Assembly (NCBI RefSeq): GCF_009914755.1
Contig: NC_060926.1
Source: the human T2T-CHM13v2.0 reference genome, Homo sapiens
Direction: 5' to 3' (one strand)
Length of the DNA stretch: 64,000 nucleotides
Shown here: piece by piece, positions 23,296 to 39,232 of the stretch
Layout of the letters: each line of letters opens with the position of its first letter
Position numbering within the stretch: position 1 is the stretch's first letter
The notes under the pieces: model-generated
What the model was told of the DNA's origin: nothing
Database searches by the model: none
The model's input: the letters and a program-made list of their open reading frames with translations, nothing else
Translations under genes and position numbers: made by a program

Positions 23296-24494
23296 CCTAG
23301 GAGCAATTTCCCTAGACATGAAGTGACTGGAAATGACTACAGGAATTGAAAAATCTTAAAATTCAAAATACTTTGAAAAGCAACATTGCTGTGTTCTCTG
23401 GAGGCCTGTGAGAGTACATTAAATAGCTATGGAATTTTATTTCAGGTGTTTTCTCTAGATGACCAGGTTTTAAATTCTAAGCTTACAAGGATAGTTAATT
23501 TATTTAGTTCAGCTTATTAGCACACGTTGAACCTAAAAATCTTATTATTTCTTTTTAGCAGTTCTTTTCAGTTCAAGATGCAATCATTTCTTCCCTGACT
23601 AGGTCTACAAAACACCAGCTATCTGTAAGCACGATTACTAGGTAGTTACTTTTCTAATCACTGCTACGAGTTCCCTCTGGTTCTTCTTAATGTCTCTGAG
23701 AAAACCATAAACAAACCTGCTTCTGGGTTTTTCCCCACTTTTATGCTTATGTTTGTAGAATCTACTTTTCATCCGAAGCATTATCTGGCCTCCCCACTAA
23801 TTTACTGTAACATTCACTGTCTCCTGTTCTGGGTTCTTGTAACACTTAATGTCCTTGATGTTTATAAGAAGCACCATTTATTACTGTAATATTTTTGTGT
23901 ATGTATATCATAATATCTCCATTAGACTGCAAGTTATTTGAAGATAAGGACCAAATCTCATGTTTATTTTCTCTTTCCTTTTCTGCTTTCCCATAACTAA
24001 CACAGAATCTTGCTATGGCAGGGATAGATTGGCACGTATTTTCTAGCCTGTACTCTTCCTGTCTCTAGGCTAAACACTCCTCTGCCTGTAGCACTGAAGA
24101 TCTAGGCCGTACTCATAGGTGACACAGCTGGTTGCTCAAGGCTGATTTTTACCAAGATGGAACCTAACCCATGCGGCATCAATTAGATTCTAATTTCTAA
24201 AAATAGGACCCAGGAAGGACAATTAGTTTTTGTTGACTGCTCATCCTGAGTCAATGTAAAGACAGAGATGGGGAGGTCATTTACGGTCATGTGGATAGGA
24301 GTCAACATGGCATGAGAACAAAAAAAAAAAATGAAGCCAGGCTTCCAAAAGAAACAGAAGTGAGGGGCCATGTGCCGGGAAGTTGGAGAACATAACCTAA
24401 TCTCCTGTCCTTCTGGCCAAAGCCACTTCCAATCATTCTTTTCCACATATCCTAATTTTATCTTCTCCATAGCACCTATCAGAGTTTGAAATAA

Positions 24495-24794
24495 TTTTTT
24501 TTTTTTTTGAGATGGAGTTTCGTTCTTGTTGCCCAGGCTGGAGTACAATGGCACGATCTTGGCTCACTGCATCCTCCACCTCCCAGGTTCAGGTGATTCT
24601 CCTGCGTCAGCCTTCCTGAGTAGCTGGGATTACAGGCATGCATCATCACACCCGGCTAATTTTTTTGTATTATTAGTTGAGATGGGGTTTCACCATGCTG
24701 GTCAAGCTGGTCTCGAACTCCTGACCTCAGGTGATTCGCCCGCCTGGGCCTCCCAAAGTGCTGGGATTACAGGTGTGAGCCACTGGGCCTGGCC
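24495..24794 (-). mobile_element. AluSq/Sp-type Alu inserted in an L2 3' end
   Basis: Poly(T) then gagatggagtttcgttcttgttgcccagg ... ggcc; flanking tgaaat..ttttt repeats; L2-like text on both sides. Confidence 0.95.
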
Positions 24795-26232
24795 TGAAAT
24801 GAAATTTTTAACTTATTTGGCCATGAGTGTATTTTGTGTCTCTCCCTTCTAGAATGTACTTCATATCAGCAATGACTTTGGCGTGTTCACTGCTGCCTCT
24901 CTAGCACTTGGACCAATATGCCTAACATAGCCACACTCAATCATATATGTGGAATAAATGAAGACACGAATAAATATTTAAATGAATTCCTCTTTCTTAG
25001 AAGTTTAAGGGACTTGGAGCACAGACCATGTTGATATATTCAGAGGGAAAATCAGAACACGAGGTGTGACTTGGGACAGGGGAGTCACAGTGGAAAGTTC
25101 TTAACCAGGCTGAGGTTACACAGTGGTTTGGGGAAATAGAAGAGAAAGAAGGAACAGGGAAAAAGAGGTCCCAAAAAAGAGATTGGGAGGAAATCAGAGA
25201 ATAAGCTCTCCATTTAGAGATTTTGCTGTTTGCTGCCCTTGTACGACAGCAGGTAAAGTAAGTGCCTCCAAATAGCCAGCTGCCAGGATAGCCTGAGAAA
25301 GGGGTGGGAAACAGGGGCTGGAGAGAACAGAAGACTTGGGGCCTTTTACAGCAAGTGCAAACTTTCACACCTGTCGCTATAAATCAAGAGGTTTATGGGG
25401 CTGCAATATTTACACTGTAATTAAAAAATCATAAAGCAAGCACCCTTTCAGGTTGTGGAAAACAAAACTCTCAAGTTCTACAGCAGCGGCTGTTAATCAG
25501 TTACTCCTAACGATCTGCTGCCCAGATTGGGTGCTTACTCGGCCACAAACAGCAAACAGGACAATGGGAGAAAGTGGGATTTGCACACGATAACGGCTTT
25601 CAGAGGTGGCTAGGACTTGGCCAGAAACCTTTCAGTTTACTGCATAGTCTCTATTGGAGCTTGGGAAAATATTTTCTGTGAACCTAGTTGGCAGCTTAGG
25701 TTTCCTTCTCCCCTGTTCCCATGTGGAACTGAAGTCCATTTACTAAGGTGAGTATGGTGGCAGTATTAGGCACTGTGGGTAGGGTTAGTGGCAGACACAG
25801 AATTTAACATGGGGGAATAACTTACCTATGGAAGTGGCAGACCCACCACATGCACCTGGAATTGCAGACCTGAAAACTGGGCAAGCTGAAGTTCACCTCA
25901 GTCTTTTTGGTGTCTCCTGCCCTTCTGGTAGGTCTTCTTTCCATCCAGAGGCCAGGCCCGCCAGTTGCTGTTGGGCACACAGAACAGTCCAGGCCAGTCC
26001 TTCAGGCTCCTGCCTGTTTCTGCACCCTTTACCGCCCTCTCATTCCCCTCCACCTCATTTCAACCTCAGGGGCCTTCTTTCAGCTCCTGGAAGGAATGGT
26101 GCTGTCTCACCATCAGGGCCTCATATGCTTTCTGCCCAGTATTCCCCTGCAGCGTTCCTTCTCATTTTTCAGATCACTGCCTTAGAATGGTCTGCTCTAA
26201 ATTGGAGAAGCCATCCCTGTGTTTTATCCTTT

Positions 26233-26394
26233 CTAAATTTGTTTTTCATTGATACATAATATTTGTACAATTCATGGGGTACATGTGATATTTTGTTACA
26301 CGCATAGAATGTGTAATGATCAAGTCAGGATATTTACGATATCCATTACCTCGAGTGTTTATCGTTTCTATGTGTTGGGATAATTTCAAGTCCT
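26233..26394 (-). mobile_element. L1MA 3'-end fragment
   Basis: 'gatacataatatttgtacaattcatggggtacatgtgatattttgttacacgcatagaatgtgtaatgatcaagtcagg'. Confidence 0.85.
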
Positions 26395-26419
26395 GTCATT
26401 GTCTTCCACAGCACTTTCC

Positions 26420-26585
26420 ACAATCAGTGATGAGATACTCATGCTTTCACTTTCTTCTTTTTCCTCACCGTGTTGCTCAACCATGGCATGGCTCTTTCAC
26501 ACACCCCTGAATATACAAGGCCTTGCACAGTGTCTGGCATATAGAAGCTTAATTTACACTTGTTGAATGAATGAATGAATGAATA
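26420..26585 (+). mobile_element. L2 3' terminus
   Basis: 'gcacagtgtctggcatatagaag...tgttgaatgaatgaatgaatgaat' terminal (TGAA)n. Confidence 0.75.
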
Positions 26586-28113
26586 CCAATCAATTGTGCT
26601 TCCCAATTTGGCTTTCCAAGTTTGACAACTGGGATGAAATATCCAGAAAGAATTTGTCCTTATTTTCTTTCTCTGTCACTACCTAATGTGGTTTATACAA
26701 TATATAATTTTGTTTCCTTCCTTCTCTAACCCTCAAAGTGGAAATTCCCACTATTGTGGGAATTTCAACAGCTGTACGTATGAGGAGGAAGGTCACATTT
26801 TGGCAGGCATTAATTTACACCACACGGCAAATACTGTCGGACATGGTGGAAGAATTCCTGGCCTTGCTTCCAGTAGACCTGATTTTGAATATTGCCTTAT
26901 ATACACATTAGAGTAAATCATTGCACCTCTATGAACTTCACTTTCCTTATCATTGCAATAAATACAAAATGAGCTATCATTTAAGGAAATCTTTTGCAAA
27001 TGATCAAGAAGACATAATTATTTCATCATTTTTATTCCACTGATCATAAGGTTCTCCTGCATTAGGTGGTGGTCTGGGGTTCCCTGTATACAATCTGGGG
27101 TCATGAAATTCACCTCCTTTCCTACCCTCCTTTGCCACCTGGAGGAATCTTCTCAACTTGTGCCCTCTGTGAGGACTCTCCCCTGTTTTCATCCACTGGC
27201 ACTGTGCTTTTCCTTTGGCCCTGGCCATGTGATTACTTGTAGGAGGATGCTTCCAAGGCCTCTGAGAGTATCAGTAAAAGTGCTAACCCTGTCACCCTCC
27301 ACTGTTCTTGTTTCTTGGGTTGTATTCATTTTATTAGCAAAATACACAGGCCTAGTGAAATGTAATAGACTTCTACCTCCAAAGATAATTAGAAGCCCAT
27401 TTATTTGCCAATTCAATGAAAAGGCAACCACAAAAGGAAACCAGCTTTTATCAGCACATGCTCACAGCTCAGATCCCTGTGGTGTTGTGCTGCTCTGGCA
27501 CTTGTGAAAAAAATAAATCCTGGGAAAACTAGGTTGCATTACGCTTCCTGTTAAACACAGAAAAGAAACAGCTGATGTCTGAATTTGCTAATTTCTGCTG
27601 ATTCAGTTAGAGGGCAATGCACTCAGCTAACGAGGGATCTATCCAGGTATGTGAATTAAGGCTTGAAAAGAAAGTGTAGGTTGTAATCAGTGCATCCAGC
27701 ACTGAGTTGGAATCATTATTTAGTGAGCATTTTCCAAAGAAATTAGAAAAGATTTCCAAGCTTAACAGAGCTTTCTGGATTCTTCCTTCTCATGGACATA
27801 ATATAACAAAAATACAATCCCCTGCCCCTCCTTCAATCCTGGGATTTTAAGCAATGCTCAAGTGACCTTGTTTTCATGTTCTGTGGAAATAAGGTAGATA
27901 CTGTTATCTCACCTGTATTAATACAGAACTCTGTATAACAAAGAAGTTGTAATTTATCAAAGGTCACACAGTGAGTCATTGCTGTAATCACAAAGCAAAT
28001 GTTCAGGTTCTCATCTCCTTGGCAGCAAATGTTTTGTTCTCTAGGTTAGACTATCTTCTCTAAACTCTCATCATATGCCACTGCCTTCCCCTGCTGGTCT
28101 ATCTCCAAGAAAG

Positions 28114-28115
<2 letters not shown>

Positions 28116-28159
<44 letters not shown>
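28116..28159. repeat. (CA)n microsatellite
   Basis: About 22 CA units. Confidence 0.98.
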
Positions 28160-28162
<3 letters not shown>

Positions 28163-28230
28163 TTACCTATTCATCCCATCCCTCCCCTATCCTCCCAACT
28201 ATCCACCCACTAGTCATCATCCATCCCATC

Positions 28231-28411
28231 TAGGATTGTCAGTTTTAAGAAAATCAAGACACCCAGTGAAATTTCAATTCAGATAAACAACAAATAATAC
28301 TTTAGTATAAGTCCCATGCAATACTTAGGACACATTTTTTCTGAAATATCATTCACCATTTATTTTACATTCAAATTTCACTGGATGCCTGTATTTTATC
28401 TGGCAAACCTA
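28231..28411. mobile_element. MER53 palindromic hAT MITE
   Basis: TIRs taggattgtcag / ctggcaaaccta; core 'agataaacaacaaataatactttagtataagtcccatgcaatacttaggacac'; 8-bp TSD atcccatc / atccgatc. Confidence 0.9.
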
Positions 28412-28569
28412 ATCCGATCACAAATGTCTACATCTTTTCCATTTATCTCCTAATTCCATGACTCTTTCAACTGCTTTTCTCCTTTAACTCCTATTATTTC
28501 AGATTTCAGCTAAACAAACTACAACCTATTTTCCCAGTGTTTCCAAACCTGTCCCGAGGCAGAGATGAT

Positions 28570-28795
28570 TGTAAAGAGCCCCTCAGGAGCACTTATTTGT
28601 GGTTTCTAGGCTGAAGGCTGGCTGTGCAACTTTGGGTAAGTATTGTAATATCTCTAAAGGTCACTTTCCTTGTCTGTAAAATGAGGGTTTCAACAGTTAC
28701 TATCTCATAGTCCTGTGGTGAGGACTAAATGACAATGCACAGTCCCTAGCACATAGTATGAGCTCATTAAAGTGGCATTAAATGTCAGCTAGTGT
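28570..28795 (+). mobile_element. MIR
   Basis: 'gctgtgcaactttgggtaagt...tttccttgtctgtaaaatgaggg...cctagcacatagtatgagctcattaa'. Confidence 0.8.
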
Positions 28796-29001
28796 GGTTG
28801 GGGTTGCTGCTCTTACGTTTATTGTCATTTTTTAGATAAGAACATGCCTAGAGAGCTGAAATTAGTTGTTGATGTTTACTTAGTGACAGTGCTGCTAAAT
28901 ATTCAAGGGATAGATTCTGAGACTCTACTGCAAATGTCAAATGCAATGTTTAAATTCAACATCTTAGACCTACATCACTTGAAGACCAATTTGGCAGACA
29001 C

Positions 29002-29535
29002 TGTTATTCATTTACCCAATTGCCATTCCCATTGCTTCATTTCTTCCTTGCTGGAAGAGCTTCAGTTTTAGAAAGTGCCTCTGCCCAGCCACATGTGTGT
29101 GCTGGGAAATGGTCTCCTTCCCAACCCACGCAAGGACTTGTTATCATGTGATTGGTTTATGCATGGATTTGTGACCCCTCCCTGGCCAATGGGCCCCGAG
29201 GTATGCTGAGGGTCTTCTGGAAAAGATTTTTTTCTTGGTAATAAAAATATGTGCATGGGAAAACATCCTTTTCTGCTCTGGATGGGACCACGTCAAAGCA
29301 TAATTCTTGAAACTACCACAGTCAACTTGTTACCAGGAAAGGAGAGTTCCCCAATACCCTGAACATGGCAAAGTAGACAAGGAAAACATGTGTGTTGTTG
29401 GGGATTGTCAAGCTACTAAATTTTCCTTGGAACTGACTTGACTTTAGATTTCTTATTTTGTGAAATAATAGTTCCTTTTTCTGTTTAAGCATTCTTGATC
29501 TATCACCTGTGACTGAAAGCTCCCAAACTGATGCA
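29002..29535 (+). mobile_element. MLT1 (J/K-like) MaLR LTR relic
   Basis: 'catgtgattggtttatgcatggatttgtgacccctccctggccaatg', 'ttttctgtttaagc...tgactgaaagctcccaaactgatgca'. Confidence 0.65.
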
Positions 29536-30487
29536 AAACTTCTAACTACATAGGAAAGAGATGAATTCAATGGTGATCACTTTCCTTTGGATCTCTGCAA
29601 AACTACATACCTACTCAACATATTTTTGGATATAATTTCAGGTAAGAGAACATCTTTCACCTCAAACATCTGATTTCCTAAACTGTTTGTGAGCCATTTG
29701 CCTTTTGTGCAAGGGTTTCTGAGCATGTAGCTCTGGCTTGGTAAGCAGCCCTCTCCACAAGAGTTTTGGAAAGAGATTTTCTCCTAGGAAACTGCAAAGA
29801 AAACTGCTTCTTGCTCAAAAAGAGGGCTTCTCCTAGGTGCATAGAAATCTGGGTTCTTTGAACAGCTCCATGAACTTATTACACTGCTTCCAAATTTAGC
29901 TTCTTTCCAATGAATTCCTTTTATGTCACACAGACATATGTACACATGTATTTATTTCCTGTGAACAAGTGTTTGTTGAGTTTGTTATCAGCTTTCTGCT
30001 AGGTCTTGGAGGCAACAAAAATATGCAAAGAAATTGACCTCAAGTTGATCACCTTTTCTTTGGAAAGATATATTAATAATAACAATAATAATAATAATAA
30101 TACAAGCTTATTAATTTAAAGTTTAAAAATGTTTTCAAATACACTATCTTATACTGGGCAGGACTTAATAAAGTTCCAAATCTGATAAAGTATATATTAC
30201 ATGGACTAACCATATAAAAACAATATATTTTGTGCCAATACTTAAGGCACATATCAGTAATTTTCAGTTTTCACAGGGCATCAAAATCACTGAGGAAAAC
30301 CTGCTAAAAGTATAGTAGGAGCTTGATTCAGGAGGTCTTAGGGGAGAGCAGAAATTTGCTTACCTGTTTTTCAAAAAGTGTGCATATGATTCTGATGCAG
30401 ATGTTTCATAGACCGTGTATTGAGGGACACAACCATAATAATCTAAATTATTAGCCAGGAACTGGTGAGTCCAGTGTTGGCTTAAAG

Positions 30488-30898
30488 CACTGGTTCTCAA
30501 AGTGTGGTCTCTGAATCAGTAGTGCAAGTATCCACTGGGAACTTATAAGAAGTATTCAAATTCTTTTTTTCCTTCTTTTCTTTTTCTTTTTCCTTTTTTT
30601 TTTTTTTTTTTTTTTGATACAGGGTCTCAGTATGTTGTCCAGGCTGTTCCTGAACTCCTGGGCTCAAGTTATCCTCCTGCCTTGGCCTCCAAAATTGCTA
30701 GGATTACAGGCATGAGCCACCATGCTTGGCCTTTTTTTCCTCTTGTTAATTTTTTTCGGAGGGATTTGAGAAATGTTTAAATTCTTGGCCTTATCCCAGA
30801 CCTGATAAATCAGAAATTCTAGGAGTGAGGTCCAGCAATATATATTTTAGCAATCTTCCGGGTGATTCTGATGCATGCGAAAAGATTAAAAAATGCTG
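30488..30898. mobile_element. MER5A interrupted by a FLAM (a second MER5-like relic lies at ~30255-30432)
   Basis: 'cactggttctcaaagtgtggtc...ggaacttataagaa' and 'ccagacctgataaatcagaaattctaggagtgaggtccagcaat...ggtgattctgatgcatgc'. Confidence 0.85.
30563..30731 (-). mobile_element. FLAM_C / AluJ left monomer with long T-rich tail
   Basis: 'gatacagggtctcagtatgttgtccaggctg...gaactcctgggctcaag...catgagccaccatgcttggcc'; single monomer. Confidence 0.9.
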
Positions 30899-31084
30899 AC
30901 TTAAATATCTGGTAAATACCCCTGGAGGAAGAAGAACTTGAGATATACTTGGTACAATTTGGATAGGATGAAAAAACTGAGAAAATCACTCCCCATCAGC
31001 TGTTACCCATCCGAGGCAGGAAGGGAGTCACGAGTAGGGTGCATAAGGCACTTGTTAGAAGGAGCCTGGCCTGACACAAGAGTA

Positions 31085-32830
31085 TTGAAAACCAAGGGTT
31101 GCCTTACCATGCCCACCCACTGACTGGCATGGCATTATTTGCCTGGAGTTTAGGAGCCTTTTCTGGGATCTTTTACATCGGTTGCTTCTTGGGTATACCT
31201 TCAGATTTGGTACAGACTAGTTGCTTCTCTGCCAAATCAGATACTGTGGTGAACTTTTTTGGGGTGTTTAGGAGCCCCCCTGGACAATCTTTCTTTTGAC
31301 TCATCCTTCTCTAGCTGAGGATGATACCACTGGGTACAAGAGGCGTGAAGACAGCTTAATAAAATCATTTTGTTTCTCCATTTTGTACTTCTGCAAGGAA
31401 GGGATTCTTTTCAGTAAGACCCTGAAAAGGCTTTCAACATGAGGCCCAATGGTGAGTGAGCTCAAATAGCTATTGTTATTTTGATCATCACTTCCAAGAA
31501 CTGCGGGGTTCTTTGGTTGGGTTAACTCAGACTAACATCTTCCACGGCATTCTCTTTGGTCAAGCAGTTCTGGCTTTATGAGTATTGGGTGACTTCTCCT
31601 GTGGAGCTCCTCCATAGAGAACTTAGAAATGGATTTTTTTTCCAGGCAGAAGAAATGGTAAACTTCACAGGTTTTGTAGCAAGTATTAACATACCCTTAA
31701 TGAGGTCTTGGGAGCCTTCACCTGGCTGGGTTTCTTGGCTTTATTTAGAGAAGCTGGGCCTCTTGGAGGGGACCAGCTACCAAGATTGTTTTCAAACCTG
31801 CTTCTCTCAGCATAGTACTTACAGGACTTGACAAGACCTGTTGCCAATCTTCAGGGTTTTCCAAGGTCTCGTAACAGGGTCTGGGAGGCAGCCACTCTTC
31901 AGAACTCTTTCATCTTCAGAAGAGCTTTCTGACACTGAGGTGATTTTGGCTGATGTCCAGGCTTCCCCAAGACCTGGACAAAATGTCTGGGAGTCAGCTG
32001 CTCCTTGAACCCACTGTACTTTTCACAAGCACTCTCTAAACCTGAGGAGACTTCTTGCTTGTCTTCAGGCCTCCCCAAATGACTGAAAAGAATATCTCAT
32101 AGGAAGCAGCTTCTAAAGAATCTCTTCTTCAATATCAGTGCCCTCCAAACATGAGAAGACTTGGTGCTGGACATGAGGCCTCCACAAAGATTTGGAAAGA
32201 TGAATTAGAGGCAGTTTGGAGGTGCACAAATGCACCCAAACTTGAGATCTGCCATCCTCTGAACCTCATAAAAGACTGGGAAGGACCCTTGGAAGGCAGC
32301 ATCTTTTCTGAAATGCACCCCATGACAGACAGCAGCACTCTCTGGACCTGAGGAGATTTGTTGGAATTTATTTTTCACCAAGGATAAGGCACCCCACAAT
32401 AGCAGTCATCTCTTCAGAGATCTGCAGTCTCTGAGAACCTTCAGAGACTGAGTATTTGCCTTTAGGCCCCCACTATGGCTGGGAAGGGAATCTTGGAGGC
32501 TCCACACAAATGCCTCCCTCAACAGCAGCACTCTCTGCACTTGAGGAGATTTGCAGGACTTTAGGCTCTGTCAAGGACTGGAAAGGCTATTGGGGGAACT
32601 GTGGCTCTGCAGAAATGCCCCCTTCACTAGCAACACCCACTGAGCCTGACAGTACTGCTGCCCAGAATTAGGTCTCACCAAGGGCTGGGAATGAAGTCTG
32701 GTGGAAAGTAGATCCAGAGAAATGCTCCTCTCGACAGCAGGGCTCTATGGGCCTGGGGAGGCTCCTGGCTCCACTGTTGGCCTCCCTAGGGGCTGAGGCC
32801 ACCCGGGCTGGAAGGCAGTCCTCTTTTTAA
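31085..32830 (-). pseudogene. KIAA1210: Decayed KIAA1210-like (CRACD family, acrosomal/testis protein) coding sequence; may extend to ~33010-33210
   Basis: Hand translation through stops and frameshifts: QSLTEPKVLQISSSAESAAVEGGICVEPPRFPSQP; SKSLWRPHVQHQVFS..KLLPMRYSFQS/GRPEDKQEVSSGLESACEKYSGFKEQLTPRHFVQVLGKP; ATKPVKFTI; VESLFRVLLKRIPSLQKYKMEKQNDFIKLSS; AEKQLVCTKSEGIPKKQP. These are collinear with KIAA1210 as I recall it ([109 protein letters not shown]). The symbol names the parent gene, not this locus. Confidence 0.85.
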
Positions 32831-33245
32831 ACCCTGCACTGGAAGAAGCACTCCACCTTTGCTTTATGTCACACTGTTGAATACTTACAATTGAGTCAAG
32901 GATATAAAAGAGGCTGAGGAGACTACGTTTGTCCAGCCATGAAATAGGCCAGTTAAGCTGCAGCCTAGAGAGAGCAGCACTCTCTCTTCCCTGGGAAGCA
33001 CCCAGAGGACAGAATGAATGGGTCGCAGCATGACTACTGCTGCTGCTTCTCTCACCACTTATTCTGAAAATCATCTGTGGTAGGAAATGCAGCCTTGGAT
33101 TCTGCAGGCTCTCCCCAGCATTGCTCACGTTAGGACTATTGCAGCTTGAGTACCATTTTGTTCCTCAGAGCAGCATCCTGAGATTTGTGTATGCACAACA
33201 AGTAGTGAATTTACAGTGCAAATTATTTATGTTGCTAACAAATTA

Positions 33246-33430
33246 CAGTCATCCCTCAGTATCCACAGGGGATTGGTTCCAGGAAACATACATACACACA
33301 CACACACACACACATACACATACACACACACACGCACAGAGTTACCAAAATCTGTGGATGCTCAATTTCCTTACATAAAATACATAGTATTTGCATGTGT
33401 GAAACCTGCAGATACAGCCAATCGCGCGTG
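33246..33430. mobile_element. MER2-like (Tigger-derived) MITE, internally deleted, with (CA)n insertion
   Basis: ta|cagtcatccctcagtatccacaggggattggttccagga ... taccaaaatctgtggatgctcaa ... gaaacctgcagatac. Confidence 0.8.
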
Positions 33431-36385: not shown

Positions 36386-36977
36386 TTTTTATGTTCAAAA
36401 CCAATAAATAGCTCCATGATCAAGTTTGGCATAAAATCAACAGAGGCTCTTGCCTTCAAGGCTCCTCATGCACTTGAATAGGAGAGATATTGTGGCTACC
36501 ATGTTGGACTGGAGACAAGACAGTCTTTTTTACTTTATCTGAGAACCATGTTAGTCTCCAGAATTTTAGAGAAGCAGAGTCCCCACCTCAGATAATCCAG
36601 AGTTTGAATTTGCCAGAAATTGTGAAGGATGGAGGGCAAATCCAATATTTGTAATTTGAGGAAAAGAAAAACAAATGTGGCACATCTTGCACATTTGAGT
36701 TTTATTGCAAATTTCTCACCGATCCACTACCAATGTCATCTGCCTATTTCTTCTTTATACAAAACAAATTCAGGATATCCATGAAGATATTTATTGGCAC
36801 AGCCAACCTAATTACAGAAACCTCTGATAATCCAGACCAATGCAATCCACTAAATGAGTTTAAGTGGGATTGAGAAAGGTTTTTTTCTAGGAAGGAGAGA
36901 GTCAAATGGTGTAAGGTAGAAAATAAAGGCCATTCACAGCAGTGTTAAAGGTGAGAAAGAATGGGTGAGAGGACAAT

Positions 36978-38269
36978 CTGCAACAAATGGCCCTGGGAAA
37001 ACTGGACATCCACATGCAAACAAGTGAAATTAGACCTTTATCTTACACCATAAGCAAAATATTAACTCTAAATGGATTAAAAACCTAAACATTAAAATAA
37101 AAAACTATAAAATTCCTAGAAGAAAACACAGAAGAAGAGCTTCATAATATTGGATATAACAATAATTTCTTGGATATGACACCAATAGCACAGGCAACAA
37201 AAGCAAAAATAGACAAGTGAGACTATATCAAACTTTAAAACTGCTATGCACCAAAAGACACAATTAACAGAGTAAAAAGGCAAACTATGGAATGGGAGAA
37301 AATATATGCAAATCATATATCTGAAAGTGGCTAATATCCAGAATATATAAAGAACTTCTATAATTCTACAACAACAGCAACAAACAACCTAATTAAAACT
37401 GAGCAAAGGAATTGAATAAACATTTCTCCAACAATGATAATACAAATGGCCAACAGCATATGAAAAGATGCTCAACATCCTAATAATTAGAGAAATGCAA
37501 ATTAAAACCACAATGAGGTAACACCTCACACCCCTTAGAATGGCTCCCCCCCACAAAAAAAAAAAAAAAAAAAAACAGAAAATAAAAAGTGTTGGCGAAG
37601 ATGTGGAGAAACTGGAACTCTTGTGCACTATTGGTGGGATTGTAAAGTGATGCTATGGAAAACAGCATAACAGTTTCTCAAAAAATTAAAAAAAGAACTA
37701 CCATATGCTCCAACAATTACCCTTCTGAGTACATATAAAAAAGATTTGAAAACAGAGCCTGGAAAAGATATCTGTACACCCGTGTTCTTAGCAGCCTTAT
37801 TCACAGTAGCCAAGAGGAAAAGCAACCCAAATTCTACAACAACAGTAGATAAAAAATAAACAAAATGTTATATATATATAATATTATATATATATATATG
37901 TATACACACACACACACACACACACACACAATGGAACATTATTCAGCCTTAATCAACCTTAATAAAAAAAATCCTGTCACAAGCTACAACATGGATGAAC
38001 CTTGAGGCCATTATGCTAAGTAAAATAAGCCAGTCACAAAAGGACAAATCTTGTATGATTCCACTTATATAAGATATCTAAAGTCGTCACATTCATAGAA
38101 ACAAAATAGAATGGTGGTTACCAGGGGCTGGAGTGAGAGGGAGTTATTGTTTAATGGGTACAGGGTTTCAGTTTTATAAGATGACAAAGTTCTGGATATC
38201 TGTTGCACAACAATGTGACTATACTTCACACTACTGAACTGTTCATTTAAAAAGGATTCAGATGGTAAA
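36978..38269 (+). mobile_element. L1MB 3' portion (end of ORF2 plus 3'UTR) with internal (TA)/(CA) repeat
   Basis: 'caacaaatggccctgggaaaactggacatccacatgcaaa', 'acaacatggatgaaccttgaggccattatgctaagtaaaataagccagtcacaaaaggacaaat', 'gagttattgtttaatgggtacagggtttcag'. Confidence 0.92.
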
Positions 38270-39232
38270 CAACAAGAACTGTGGAGAAAAGCCTTGATTT
38301 TAGGAGCCAAGACTCTTCAAGGTTCTGTGGGAAAGTGAAGCCTATGGCTGCAGCGATGAGGTCATAGAAGCAGGCCAGTTAGCTCTGCCTTTCAGCAGAA
38401 GCGGTTCCCCAAGAGAGTTGCCAGCAGAGACCTGTCAGTGAAGAGCCTTCCTAAGAGCTGGGGAAATAGCTCCTTTAGTGATGTGTCACCCAGCAATCAT
38501 GGTGGAAGCAACACCCACTACCCAGACCAAGTGCGAGCTAATTACAGCTGAGGCAAATGGAGGAAAATAATAGAAACAAGGGGTGCTCTTACAATAGAGG
38601 AGGGAGAGGCATTGCAGGACTAATATAAAGACCAGCTGGAAGTTGGTCTTTAAACTTCTATAGAAAAGCAGTAATCCTGGTTCTCTGCTGTCCATGTGAC
38701 CCTAACAACTCCTGGGCAACATGTCCTCATCCATCAGATCAGAATAATTACATCTTCCCTGCCTACCTTGGACAAGATTGCTATAAAAATAAAAACTAAA
38801 GTCATAAATATGTAAATGTTTTATAAATTGTAAAGTGCTCTAAAGTGTAGAAAATGAATTTGAGGAAGGAGCTTCTCAAACACTAGAAATGGCTGATAAA
38901 TCCCGAAGACTAGAAGTTCTGAGCTTCAGCAGGTCACCTGGCAGAACTGTCTTTCATGAAAAGGTGAAGCAAGGAGCAGATCACACCAAGATTTAAGTAC
39001 TAATTTTCTCCCATTACTGGTGGCTTCAATAATGTTTTTATCCCTCTGTTACTGGAACAAATGATGACCTTTGAGTTTCCAGGAGGGGAAAGAGCAGCAT
39101 TAACTTAGAAGCACATCATTTCTTCCTTCTCATGGAAGAGAGTTTTCATCTGTGAAAAGCTGACTCACTCATGTGAAACTCAGAGCTGAAAACTTGAATT
39201 TATTACAGTTATACCAGAATCATTGCCTTATA

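What the first reader, a model, noticed from the sequence alone, without database searches (positions are those of the whole stretch)
31085..32830. Hidden ancient KIAA1210-like gene relic (possible out-of-X testis retrogene that later died)
Seen: ~1.75 kb of non-repeat sequence whose minus strand, read across many stops and frameshifts, gives a collinear S/P/Q/E-rich repeat protein followed by ATKPVKFTI, VESLFRVLLKRIPSLQKYKMEKQNDF and KSEGIPKKQP. The ORF track shows only two small in-frame pieces (32135-32338, 32205-32399). Knowledge, recalled from memory: these blocks match X-linked KIAA1210, an acrosome/testis protein of the CRACD family, and X-linked male-germline genes often give rise to autosomal retrogenes that escape meiotic sex-chromosome inactivation. 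Inference: this is an old duplicate, perhaps an intact gene in other mammals and a lost one in this lineage. I cannot tell whether it is already annotated or which chromosome this is.
Basis: partly seen in the sequence, partly recalled or inferred. Interest (0 to 1): 0.85.

Follow-up and report, generated by a model that had tools for sequence, protein, structure and literature searches.

The report
Ancient dead retrocopy of KIAA1210
This stretch of human chromosome 2 is a very old, badly decayed and truncated copy of part of the X-linked sperm-acrosome gene KIAA1210, most likely made from its spliced RNA; it is an ordinary processed pseudogene.

Summary
The minus strand of window 31087-32852 is collinear with the 3' 60% of the large coding exon of X-linked KIAA1210 plus about 27 codons of the next exon. 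Nucleotide identity is 70.9% over 1562 ungapped columns, and family-profile domains reach E 1e-20, on the minus strand only.

The copy is broken: 58 gaps (45 not multiples of three) and 8 in-frame stops in 459 clean codons. Differences are spread evenly over the three codon positions.

In this genome, KIAA1210 on chrX is the only other locus that matches it.

The copy runs across the exon 12/13 junction without the roughly 1 kb X intron. An anchored test at that exact base is reached by 2 of 128000 window positions, which favours a processed retrocopy. It lacks the N-terminal 55% of the gene, the last 120 codons, the 3'UTR and any poly(A).

Trees place it at the base of placental KIAA1210 sequences. 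A primate origin (p 8e-6) and a Euarchontoglires origin (p 0.017) are rejected.

No evidence of a functional phase was found, and the test has little power because the parent evolves almost neutrally. No closer intact protein exists among 1.8 billion cluster representatives. It is absent from the supplied RefSeq table.

Verdict: a new member of a known kind, of low interest.

The parts
31087..32852 (-). The whole KIAA1210-derived relic. It corresponds to human KIAA1210 residues ~940-1589, that is the 3' part of the large exon 12 plus the first ~27 codons of exon 13.
   Evidence: Local nucleotide alignment X 117466109-117464212 vs window 32795-31093: 1108 of 1562 ungapped columns identical (70.9%), 59 blocks. 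TBLASTN of P0001 gives collinear hits for residues 880-1578. Profile hits span 32852-31119 on the minus strand only.
32068..32852 (-). Decayed S/P/Q/E-rich repeat region of exon 12. It is internally repetitive, so the register of the alignment is partly ambiguous.
   Evidence: Profile domains 32852-32313 (i-E 1.4e-11), 32643-32437 (6.4e-10) and 32214-32068 (3e-10) in three different frames. Many off-diagonal BLASTN hits to X 117464841-117466702.
31719..32081 (-). Block matching profile positions 6-128 of the last 420 residues (LGRPEDKQEVSS ... PRGPASLNKAKKPSQ).
   Evidence: hmmsearch i-E 6.7e-17, 50.2 bits. TBLASTN residues 1265-1309: 55.6% identity over 45 residues.
31549..31770 (-).
   Evidence: hmmsearch i-E 2.8e-7. 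The family consensus reads satKPvkFtvapa.
31247..31600 (-). Best-conserved block, VESLFRVLLKRIPSLQKYKMEKQNDF. It lies in a 76-codon open stretch, 31301-31531.
   Evidence: hmmsearch i-E 1.3e-20, 62.5 bits. TBLASTN 48% identity over 63 residues.
31163..31343 (-). End of the exon-12-derived part (…AEKQLVCTKSEGIPKKQPM*KIPE), up to the position of the parent's splice donor.
   Evidence: hmmsearch i-E 2.2e-14. The parent donor CAG|GTAAGG is shown. The first window base after the junction is 31162.
31087..31162 (-). Exon-13-derived part, joined directly to exon 12 with no intron. It reads KAPKLQANNAMPVS, then a 1-nt frame slip, then WVGMVRQPLVF. The family consensus is [27 protein letters not shown].
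   Evidence: Anchored frameshift-aware score 36 at 31160, reached by 2 of 128000 window positions. Variants give 37, 30 and 6 of 128000. Anchored nucleotide score: exon 13 gives 9.5 (19 of 128000), the intron gives 5.5 (1239 of 128000).
30893..31086 (.). Unique flank on the 3' side of the relic. No homology to the rest of KIAA1210 (remainder of exon 13, exons 14-15, 3'UTR) and no poly(A).
   Evidence: No genomic match other than itself for this part of the query. The exon-13-onward profile has no positive-scoring hit anywhere in the window. No non-repeat BLASTN hit of window 24000-31142 to the 120 kb X locus.
32853..33240 (.). Unique flank on the 5' side of the relic. No homology to upstream KIAA1210 sequence.
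   Evidence: The profile of human residues 1-1300 finds nothing above 32852. The genome search matches only the (CA)n end of this flank.

Best explanation
Window 31087-32852 (minus strand) is a non-functional processed pseudogene fragment. In this reading, a spliced KIAA1210 transcript from the X chromosome was reverse-transcribed and inserted into what is now chr2p14 (the hub's coordinates put it at T2T chr2:67.05 Mb). This happened around or before the placental radiation.

Only the stretch from about codon 940 to about codon 1589 survives. The 5' end was probably never copied, as is typical of 5'-truncated retrocopies. The 3' end (the last ~120 codons, the UTR and the poly(A)) has been lost or eroded.

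Since then the copy has drifted neutrally, collecting frameshifts, stops and about 29% nucleotide differences from the parent.

Shown here: homology, uniqueness in this genome, disablement, absence of the intron at the one testable junction, and the basal phylogenetic position. Inferred: L1-type retroposition, 5' truncation at birth, secondary loss of the 3' end, and lack of any function.
For: Identity:
- The only non-self DNA matches in the genome are 3 collinear pieces on chrX.
- The chrX open frame is 100% KIAA1210 [Homo sapiens], with 109 of 109 hits named or clustered as eutherian KIAA1210 homologues.
- A whole-genome protein search with KIAA1210 returns 14 chrX exon pieces plus 3 pieces of this relic, and no other locus.
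- Profile E-values reach 1.3e-20 on the minus strand only.

Decay:
- 58 gaps, of which 45 are not multiples of three.
- 8 stops in 459 clean codons.
- 47.3% amino-acid identity.
- Differences by codon position 135/145/141.
- Pairwise dN/dS 0.70 (all).

Processed origin:
- The parent has a donor CAG|GTAAGG and an acceptor ...CTCAG|GAAAG about 1 kb apart.
- The relic continues from the donor position directly into exon-13-like sequence. The anchored score is reached by 2 of 128000 positions, and by 37, 30 and 6 of 128000 under three variants.
- At nucleotide level, exon 13 is reached by 19 of 128000 positions and the intron by 1239 of 128000.
- The intron is old. A chr4 CRACD-family paralogue has an exon starting in the same phase, with the same first residues (x-K-P), ahead of the same P-x-W-I-T-x-A-x-Q-K-Q-K motif.

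Age:
- In a tree of 48 orthologues the relic sits outside Boreoeutheria (SH-aLRT 95), in a polytomy with Xenarthra and Afrotheria.
- Primates+relic is rejected (p-AU 7.8e-6), as is Euarchontoglires+relic (p-AU 0.017).
- With koala, bird and gecko outgroups it falls on the eutherian side (SH-aLRT 98).
Against: - No poly(A) tail, no target-site duplication, and no trace of the rest of exon 13, exons 14-15 or the 3'UTR. L1-made retrocopies normally keep their 3' end, so a later deletion has to be assumed.
- Only one splice junction can be tested, and unanchored tests of it are not significant. The local nucleotide score is reached by 217 of 2000 shuffles. The exon-13-onward profile gives no hit. 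The local frameshift-aware score ranks within 13 of 854 bins.
- The intron model also has a weak anchored signal (1239 of 128000). This is partly because the intron and exon 13 start with similar bases.
- The lower age bound rests on a long, noisy row in 'quick' trees.
- The upper bound (after the marsupial split) is not secured. A tree with eutherians+koala excluding the relic is not rejected (p-AU 0.34).
Confidence: 0.8

Rival explanations
1. DNA-level (unprocessed) duplicate. A genomic fragment of the KIAA1210 locus containing part of exon 12 and the start of intron 12 was copied or transposed to chr2 and then decayed.
For: - The best local nucleotide alignment runs about 65 nt past the donor into the X intron: 42 of 62 ungapped columns identical, with 4 gaps.
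- The anchored intron score of 5.5 is reached by only 1239 of 128000 positions.
- There is no poly(A) and there are no downstream exons.
Against: - That extension adds only +5.5 to the alignment score, and an unanchored test is null (1131 of 2000 shuffles reach it).
- The spliced model fits much better at the same anchor: 19 against 1239 of 128000 at nucleotide level, and 2 of 128000 at protein-profile level.
- The fit stays strong when the two residues shared by both models are dropped (37 of 128000).
- The relic contains W-V-G-M-V-R-Q, matching the exon-13 motif W-I-T-M-V-K-Q.
Confidence: 0.13
2. Former functional out-of-X retrogene. The copy was once expressed in the male germline and under selection, is perhaps still intact in some mammals, and died in the human lineage.
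For: - The parent is X-linked (locus Xq24: passage read in PMC9826517). It is described as acrosomal and testis-associated in the title of Iwamori et al. 2017, seen only in that paper's reference list.
- The copy is autosomal and old.
- From recall, X-to-autosome retrogenes are a known class.
- A 139-codon open frame (32745-33164) runs into the 5' edge of the relic in the same frame.
Against: - The copy lacks the first ~940 codons, including the only Pfam domain of the family. It also lacks the last ~120 codons, which carry the invariant C-terminal motif.
- There is no codon-position bias in the differences.
- An exhaustive phmmer search of 1.84 billion cluster representatives with the best relic piece gave 11 hits. 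The real ones were KIAA1210 orthologues at 47-54% identity, and none was closer.
- The word-index search found none.
- Open frames of 110 codons or more are common here, with 24 in the window.
- The selection test has little power, because the parent's own rate is close to the relic's. Root-to-tip path is about 0.51 for Homo against 0.65 for the relic.
Confidence: 0.05
3. Chance or low-complexity resemblance, or a remnant of a separate CRACD-family paralogue rather than of KIAA1210 itself.
For: - The repeat region is compositionally biased and its register is ambiguous.
- Pfam finds no family in 9 of 9 translated pieces. The two weak unrelated hits are below cutoff.
Against: - E-values reach 1e-20 in the non-repetitive C-terminal blocks. 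The hits are collinear and on one strand only.
- Nucleotide identity to chrX is 70.9%.
- The relic nests with eutherian KIAA1210, apart from koala, bird and gecko homologues.
- No match to the chr4 paralogue was seen in either genome search seeded from this locus.
Confidence: 0.01

Closest known systems
KIAA1210 (X-linked acrosomal protein, CRACD family; human protein P0001, 1709 residues)
   Same: The relic is collinear with residues ~940-1589. It shares the repeat region and the conserved blocks ATKP-KFT, VE-LF-V-LKR-P-QKYK-EKQ-F and KSE---KKQP, plus the start of exon 13.
   Different: The relic is on chr2, not X. It lacks exons 1-11, the first ~450 codons of exon 12, the end of exon 13, exons 14-15 and the UTRs. 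It carries 45 frame-breaking gaps and 8 stops, and it lacks the PF15262 region.
Processed pseudogenes / retrocopies made by LINE-1 machinery
   Same: It sits on a different chromosome from the parent. It has no intron at the one junction covered, it is 5'-truncated, and it has decayed neutrally.
   Different: No poly(A), no target-site duplication and no 3' end are detectable. That is unusual for a young retrocopy, but plausible for one of roughly 100 million years or more.
Out-of-X functional retrogenes of the male germline (class recalled from the literature; no example was examined here)
   Same: The direction of movement is X to autosome, and the parent is testis-associated.
   Different: No intact frame, no full-length coverage, and no sign of selection or of an intact orthologue.

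Membership tests
Processed pseudogene (retrocopy) of KIAA1210 | Significant, collinear homology to the parent's mature mRNA / coding sequence | tested here: met
   Nucleotide identity is 70.9% over 1562 ungapped columns. Profile domains have i-E 6.7e-17 to 1.3e-20. chrX KIAA1210 is the only other matching locus in the genome.
Processed pseudogene (retrocopy) of KIAA1210 | Parent introns absent (exon-exon junctions contiguous) | tested here: met
   One junction (exon 12/13) is covered. The anchored profile score is reached by 2 of 128000 positions, with variants at 37, 30 and 6 of 128000. At nucleotide level, exon 13 scores 19 of 128000 against 1239 of 128000 for the intron. Unanchored tests are not significant.
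Processed pseudogene (retrocopy) of KIAA1210 | 3' poly(A) tract after the parent's 3'UTR | tested here: not met
   The relic stops about 27 codons into exon 13. No later exon or UTR homology was found. The nearest A-run on the minus strand (30564-30615) lies inside a masked repeat 470 nt away.
Processed pseudogene (retrocopy) of KIAA1210 | Flanking target-site duplication | not tested
   Both original ends appear to be lost or eroded. At this age and divergence, a short duplication could not be told from chance.
Processed pseudogene (retrocopy) of KIAA1210 | Disabled reading frame | tested here: met
   45 of 58 gaps are not multiples of three, and there are 8 stops in 459 clean codons.
CRACD / KIAA1210 protein family (Pfam PF15262, DUF4592) | Presence of the PF15262 domain | tested here: not met
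   0 of 9 translated relic pieces hit PF15262. A profile of human residues 1-1300 finds nothing upstream of 32852. The copy simply does not cover that part of the gene.
Functional out-of-X retrogene | Intact open reading frame, here or in orthologous loci | tested here: not met
   It is broken in human. No protein closer to the relic than ordinary orthologues exists among 1.84 billion representatives. Orthologous loci themselves could not be fetched.
Functional out-of-X retrogene | Purifying selection after duplication | tested here: inconclusive
   Pairwise dN/dS is 0.70 and differences are equal across codon positions. The parent itself evolves nearly as fast as the relic, so the test has little power.
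Functional out-of-X retrogene | Testis expression | not testable with these tools

The most novel reading that the evidence does not exclude
The copy was born in stem placentals as a chimeric, autosomal, C-terminal-only KIAA1210-like gene. In this reading it used the upstream open frame at 32745-33164 or another recruited 5' exon, worked in the male germline for a time, and survives intact in some placental lineage while being dead in primates.
Probability: 0.04. Interest if true: 0.5.

Novelty: new member of a known kind. Interest (0 to 1): 0.2.

Why it matters
It adds one ancient, apparently unannotated processed pseudogene to the gene desert on chr2p14. It also gives a dated example of X-to-autosome retroposition of a fast-evolving sperm gene from around the base of placental mammals.

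Its practical value is modest:
- It explains a stretch of otherwise anonymous unique DNA.
- It offers a roughly neutral 'fossil' of the ancestral placental KIAA1210 exon 12/13, which could help polarise changes in that rapidly evolving gene.
- It is a caution for read-mapping or homology searches with KIAA1210.

It opens no new biological question unless an intact orthologue turns up elsewhere.

Tried and rejected
- **Pfam on nine translated pieces.** No relevant family.
- **TRF.** No tandem array inside the relic.
- **Full-length MAFFT of 85 orthologues.** Timed out. It was replaced by C-terminal alignments.
- **Word-index homologue search with the 76-residue relic piece.** 57 candidates, none scored.
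- **Unanchored tests of the exon 12/13 junction.** Local nucleotide alignment against shuffles (217 of 2000 for exon 13, 1131 of 2000 for the intron). The exon-13-onward profile against six frames of the whole window (best score -4.5). A local frameshift-aware scan (13 of 854 bins reach the score).
- **Search for the rest of the retrocopy** (exons 13-15, UTR). Nothing was found in the window.
- **Search for upstream KIAA1210 homology.** Nothing above 32852.
- **The 139-codon open frame abutting the relic.** Judged unremarkable, since the window holds 24 open frames of 110 codons or more.
- **A separate CRACD-family origin.** Rejected by the tree.
- **AU tests for the upper age bound.** Inconclusive (p 0.40 and 0.34).
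- **Literature.** 'KIAA1210' with 'pseudogene' gave 4 papers, seen as a listing only and all unrelated by title and abstract. The search for at least 2 of 'KIAA1210', 'retrogene', 'retrocopy' and 'paralog' matched 733 papers, of which 15 were listed; none of the 15 mentions KIAA1210.
Full report
**1. What is there**

The hub places the window at T2T-CHM13 chr2:67,022,001-67,086,000. The two ORFs it cited are listed at exactly those coordinates. TRF finds no tandem array inside the interval; the only arrays nearby are a T-run at 30564-30615 and (AC)n at 33286-33338. Pfam recognises no family in any of nine translated pieces.

**2. Identity**

- A DNA search of the window's own genome with 31085-32830 gives, besides itself, three matches. 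All lie on contig 23 (chrX), on the same strand, collinear within 1.8 kb, at 67-71% identity with E 8.5e-13 to 4.8e-34.
- That chrX stretch is a 1103-codon stop-free frame.
- In the protein database this frame is 100% identical to 'KIAA1210 [Homo sapiens]' (P0001, 1709 residues, PF15262). All 109 hits are eutherian KIAA1210 homologues or unnamed cluster members of that family.
- Mapping P0001 back onto 120 kb of chrX gives its exon structure. The large exon (here called exon 12) covers residues ~489-1562. Three small exons follow.
- TBLASTN of P0001 against the window gives collinear minus-strand hits from residue 880 to residue 1578.
- A local nucleotide alignment pairs X 117466109-117464212 with window 32795-31093. 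Of 1562 ungapped columns, 1108 are identical (70.9%), in 59 blocks.
- A profile of the last 420 residues of 83 orthologues gives four collinear domains in three frames of the minus strand (i-E 6.7e-17, 2.8e-7, 1.3e-20, 2.2e-14) and nothing on the plus strand.
- A profile of residues 1-1300 hits only 32852-31974, so the copy starts at about 32852.
- A whole-genome six-frame search with KIAA1210 finds its own exons on chrX, three pieces of this relic, and no other locus. The tool warns that weak matches may be missed.

**3. State of the copy**

On the parent's reading frame the alignment has 58 gaps, 45 of them not multiples of three. There are 8 stops in 459 gap-free codons. Amino-acid identity is 47.3%. 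Differences are spread evenly over codon positions 1, 2 and 3 (135/145/141). Pairwise dN/dS is 0.70. This is a dead sequence.

**4. Retrocopy or DNA duplicate?**

The copy begins inside exon 12, so only the exon 12/13 junction can be tested. In the parent, exon 12 ends CAG|GTAAGG, and exon 13 begins about 1 kb downstream after ...CTCAG.

In the window, the base after the donor position is 31162. From there the relic reads K-A-P-K-L-Q-A-N-N-A-M-P-V-S. After a one-base slip it reads W-V-G-M-V-R-Q-P-L-V-F. The family consensus for the start of exon 13 is [27 protein letters not shown].

Unanchored tests are not significant:
- Local nucleotide score: 217 of 2000 shuffles reach it for exon 13, and 1131 of 2000 for the intron.
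- The exon-13-onward profile finds nothing.
- A local frameshift-aware scan ranks the site within the top 13 of 854 bins.

The hypothesis, however, predicts the exact starting base. I therefore scored alignments anchored at every one of the 128000 positions of the window, on both strands.

| Anchored test | Positions reaching the observed score (of 128000) |
|---|---|
| Family consensus, 27 residues | 2 |
| Consensus without the first two residues (also encoded by intron read-through) | 37 |
| Human sequence instead of the consensus | 30 |
| Harsher gap and frameshift penalties | 6 |
| Nucleotide level, exon 13 | 19 |
| Nucleotide level, intron | 1239 |

The intron is unlikely to be a later gain. 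A CRACD-family paralogue on chr4 has an exon that starts in the same phase, with the same first residues (x-K-P), upstream of the same P-x-W-I-T-x-A-x-Q-K-Q-K motif. The paralogue was identified only by a 48% match over 31 residues to a shark 'CRACD-like protein', E 1.3e-6.

I therefore favour a processed origin, at about 0.8.

Three things count against it. There is no poly(A). There is no recognisable remainder of exon 13, exons 14-15 or the 3'UTR. The 200 nt beyond the relic's 3' end are unique DNA, followed by an old interspersed repeat (30784-30892; 39 other genomic copies were listed, at 74-84% identity) and an Alu-like masked stretch. A secondary deletion of the 3' part must be assumed. 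The 5' flank is unique up to a (CA)n tract.

**5. Age**

In a tree of 48 eutherian orthologues plus the relic (505 columns), the gene tree recovers Laurasiatheria, Euarchontoglires and Atlantogenata. The relic attaches at the deepest split, outside Boreoeutheria (SH-aLRT 95), in a polytomy with Xenarthra and Afrotheria. Its end branch is 0.65, and its best identity is 55%, to dugong.

| Constraint tested (AU test) | lnL difference | p-AU | Result |
|---|---|---|---|
| Primates + relic as one clade | 38.7 | 7.8e-6 | rejected |
| Euarchontoglires + relic as one clade | 12.0 | 0.017 | rejected |
| 26 eutherian orthologues as one clade (relic outside the crown) | 2.79 | 0.40 | not rejected |
| Eutherians + koala as one clade (relic branching before the koala) | 5.47 | 0.34 | not rejected |

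Non-eutherian homologues exist: koala, two birds and a gecko, each about 970 residues. They share only the N-terminal region and the C-terminal ~300 residues with the human protein. With them as outgroups, the relic falls on the eutherian side (SH-aLRT 98).

The best reading is an origin on the placental stem or close to the crown radiation. The lower bound is reasonably firm; the upper bound is only favoured. These are 'quick' IQ-TREE searches with a long, gappy row, so the usual long-branch caveat applies.

**6. Was it ever functional?**

Nothing here says so.
- The copy covers about 38% of the coding sequence. It lacks the start codon, the only Pfam domain, and the invariant C-terminal motif.
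- An exhaustive phmmer search of 1.84 billion cluster representatives, using the best 76-residue piece, found 11 proteins at E of 0.001 or below. The genuine ones are ordinary KIAA1210 orthologues at 47-54% identity, and nothing is closer to the relic.
- The selection test is weak, because the parent evolves almost as fast as the relic. Summing the branch lengths printed gives a root-to-tip path of about 0.51 for Homo, against 0.65 for the relic.
- A 139-codon open frame abutting the 5' edge in the same frame is not unusual here, since the window holds 24 frames of 110 codons or more.

**7. Known or new?**

The RefSeq table supplied by the hub has no gene or pseudogene at this place. Neither literature search turned up a paper describing a KIAA1210 pseudogene or retrocopy:
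- 'KIAA1210' with 'pseudogene' gave 4 papers, seen as a listing with abstract starts only, all unrelated.
- The search for at least 2 of 'KIAA1210', 'retrogene', 'retrocopy' and 'paralog' matched 733 papers, of which 15 were listed. None of the 15 contains KIAA1210.

GENCODE, PseudoPipe and the retrocopy databases could not be consulted, and supplementary tables of retrocopy surveys were not opened.

For background on the parent I read passages of PMC9826517. They place KIAA1210 at Xq24 and cite Iwamori et al. 2017 for its acrosomal and ectoplasmic-specialisation localisation. That 2017 paper itself was not read.

**8. Verdict**

This is one more ancient, truncated processed pseudogene: a new member of a known kind, of low interest.

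Noticed in passing
window 32745-33164 (minus): A 139-codon stop-free frame starts in unique DNA upstream of the relic and reads into its 5' edge in the same frame as the first profile hit. The window holds 24 stop-free frames of 110 codons or more, so this is probably chance.
   Followed up: partly
window 30784-30892: An old interspersed repeat lies here; 39 other genomic copies were listed, at 74-84% identity. It sits just beyond the unique 200 nt that follow the relic, next to an Alu-like masked stretch (30552-30783) with a long T-run at 30564-30615. The repeat family was not identified.
   Followed up: partly
L009 (chrX 117464212-117464278) vs L009 3115-3279: The first ~65 nt of KIAA1210 intron 12 and the start of exon 13 resemble each other. 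Both begin with similar bases, and both contain an ATGGCAA(A)GCAGA-like string. This gives the intron model a weak spurious score in the junction test. Whether it reflects an old internal duplication is unknown.
   Followed up: no
proteins P0140-P0143: Koala, bird and gecko KIAA1210 homologues are only about 970 residues long. They align with the human protein only at the N-terminal region and the last ~300 residues. The long S/P/Q repeat region of exon 12 may therefore be a placental expansion. The models could also be incomplete.
   Followed up: partly
L018 1439-1628 (chr4 59811365-59811554): An exon of a CRACD-family paralogue encodes ...QPLWITLALQKQKGF... It starts in the same intron phase, and with the same first residues, as KIAA1210 exon 13. 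This points to an intron position conserved across the family.
   Followed up: partly
window 36960-38270: A roughly 1.3 kb stretch matches several places inside the KIAA1210 locus on chrX at 63-67% identity. It is an interspersed repeat shared by both regions and is unrelated to the relic.
   Followed up: no
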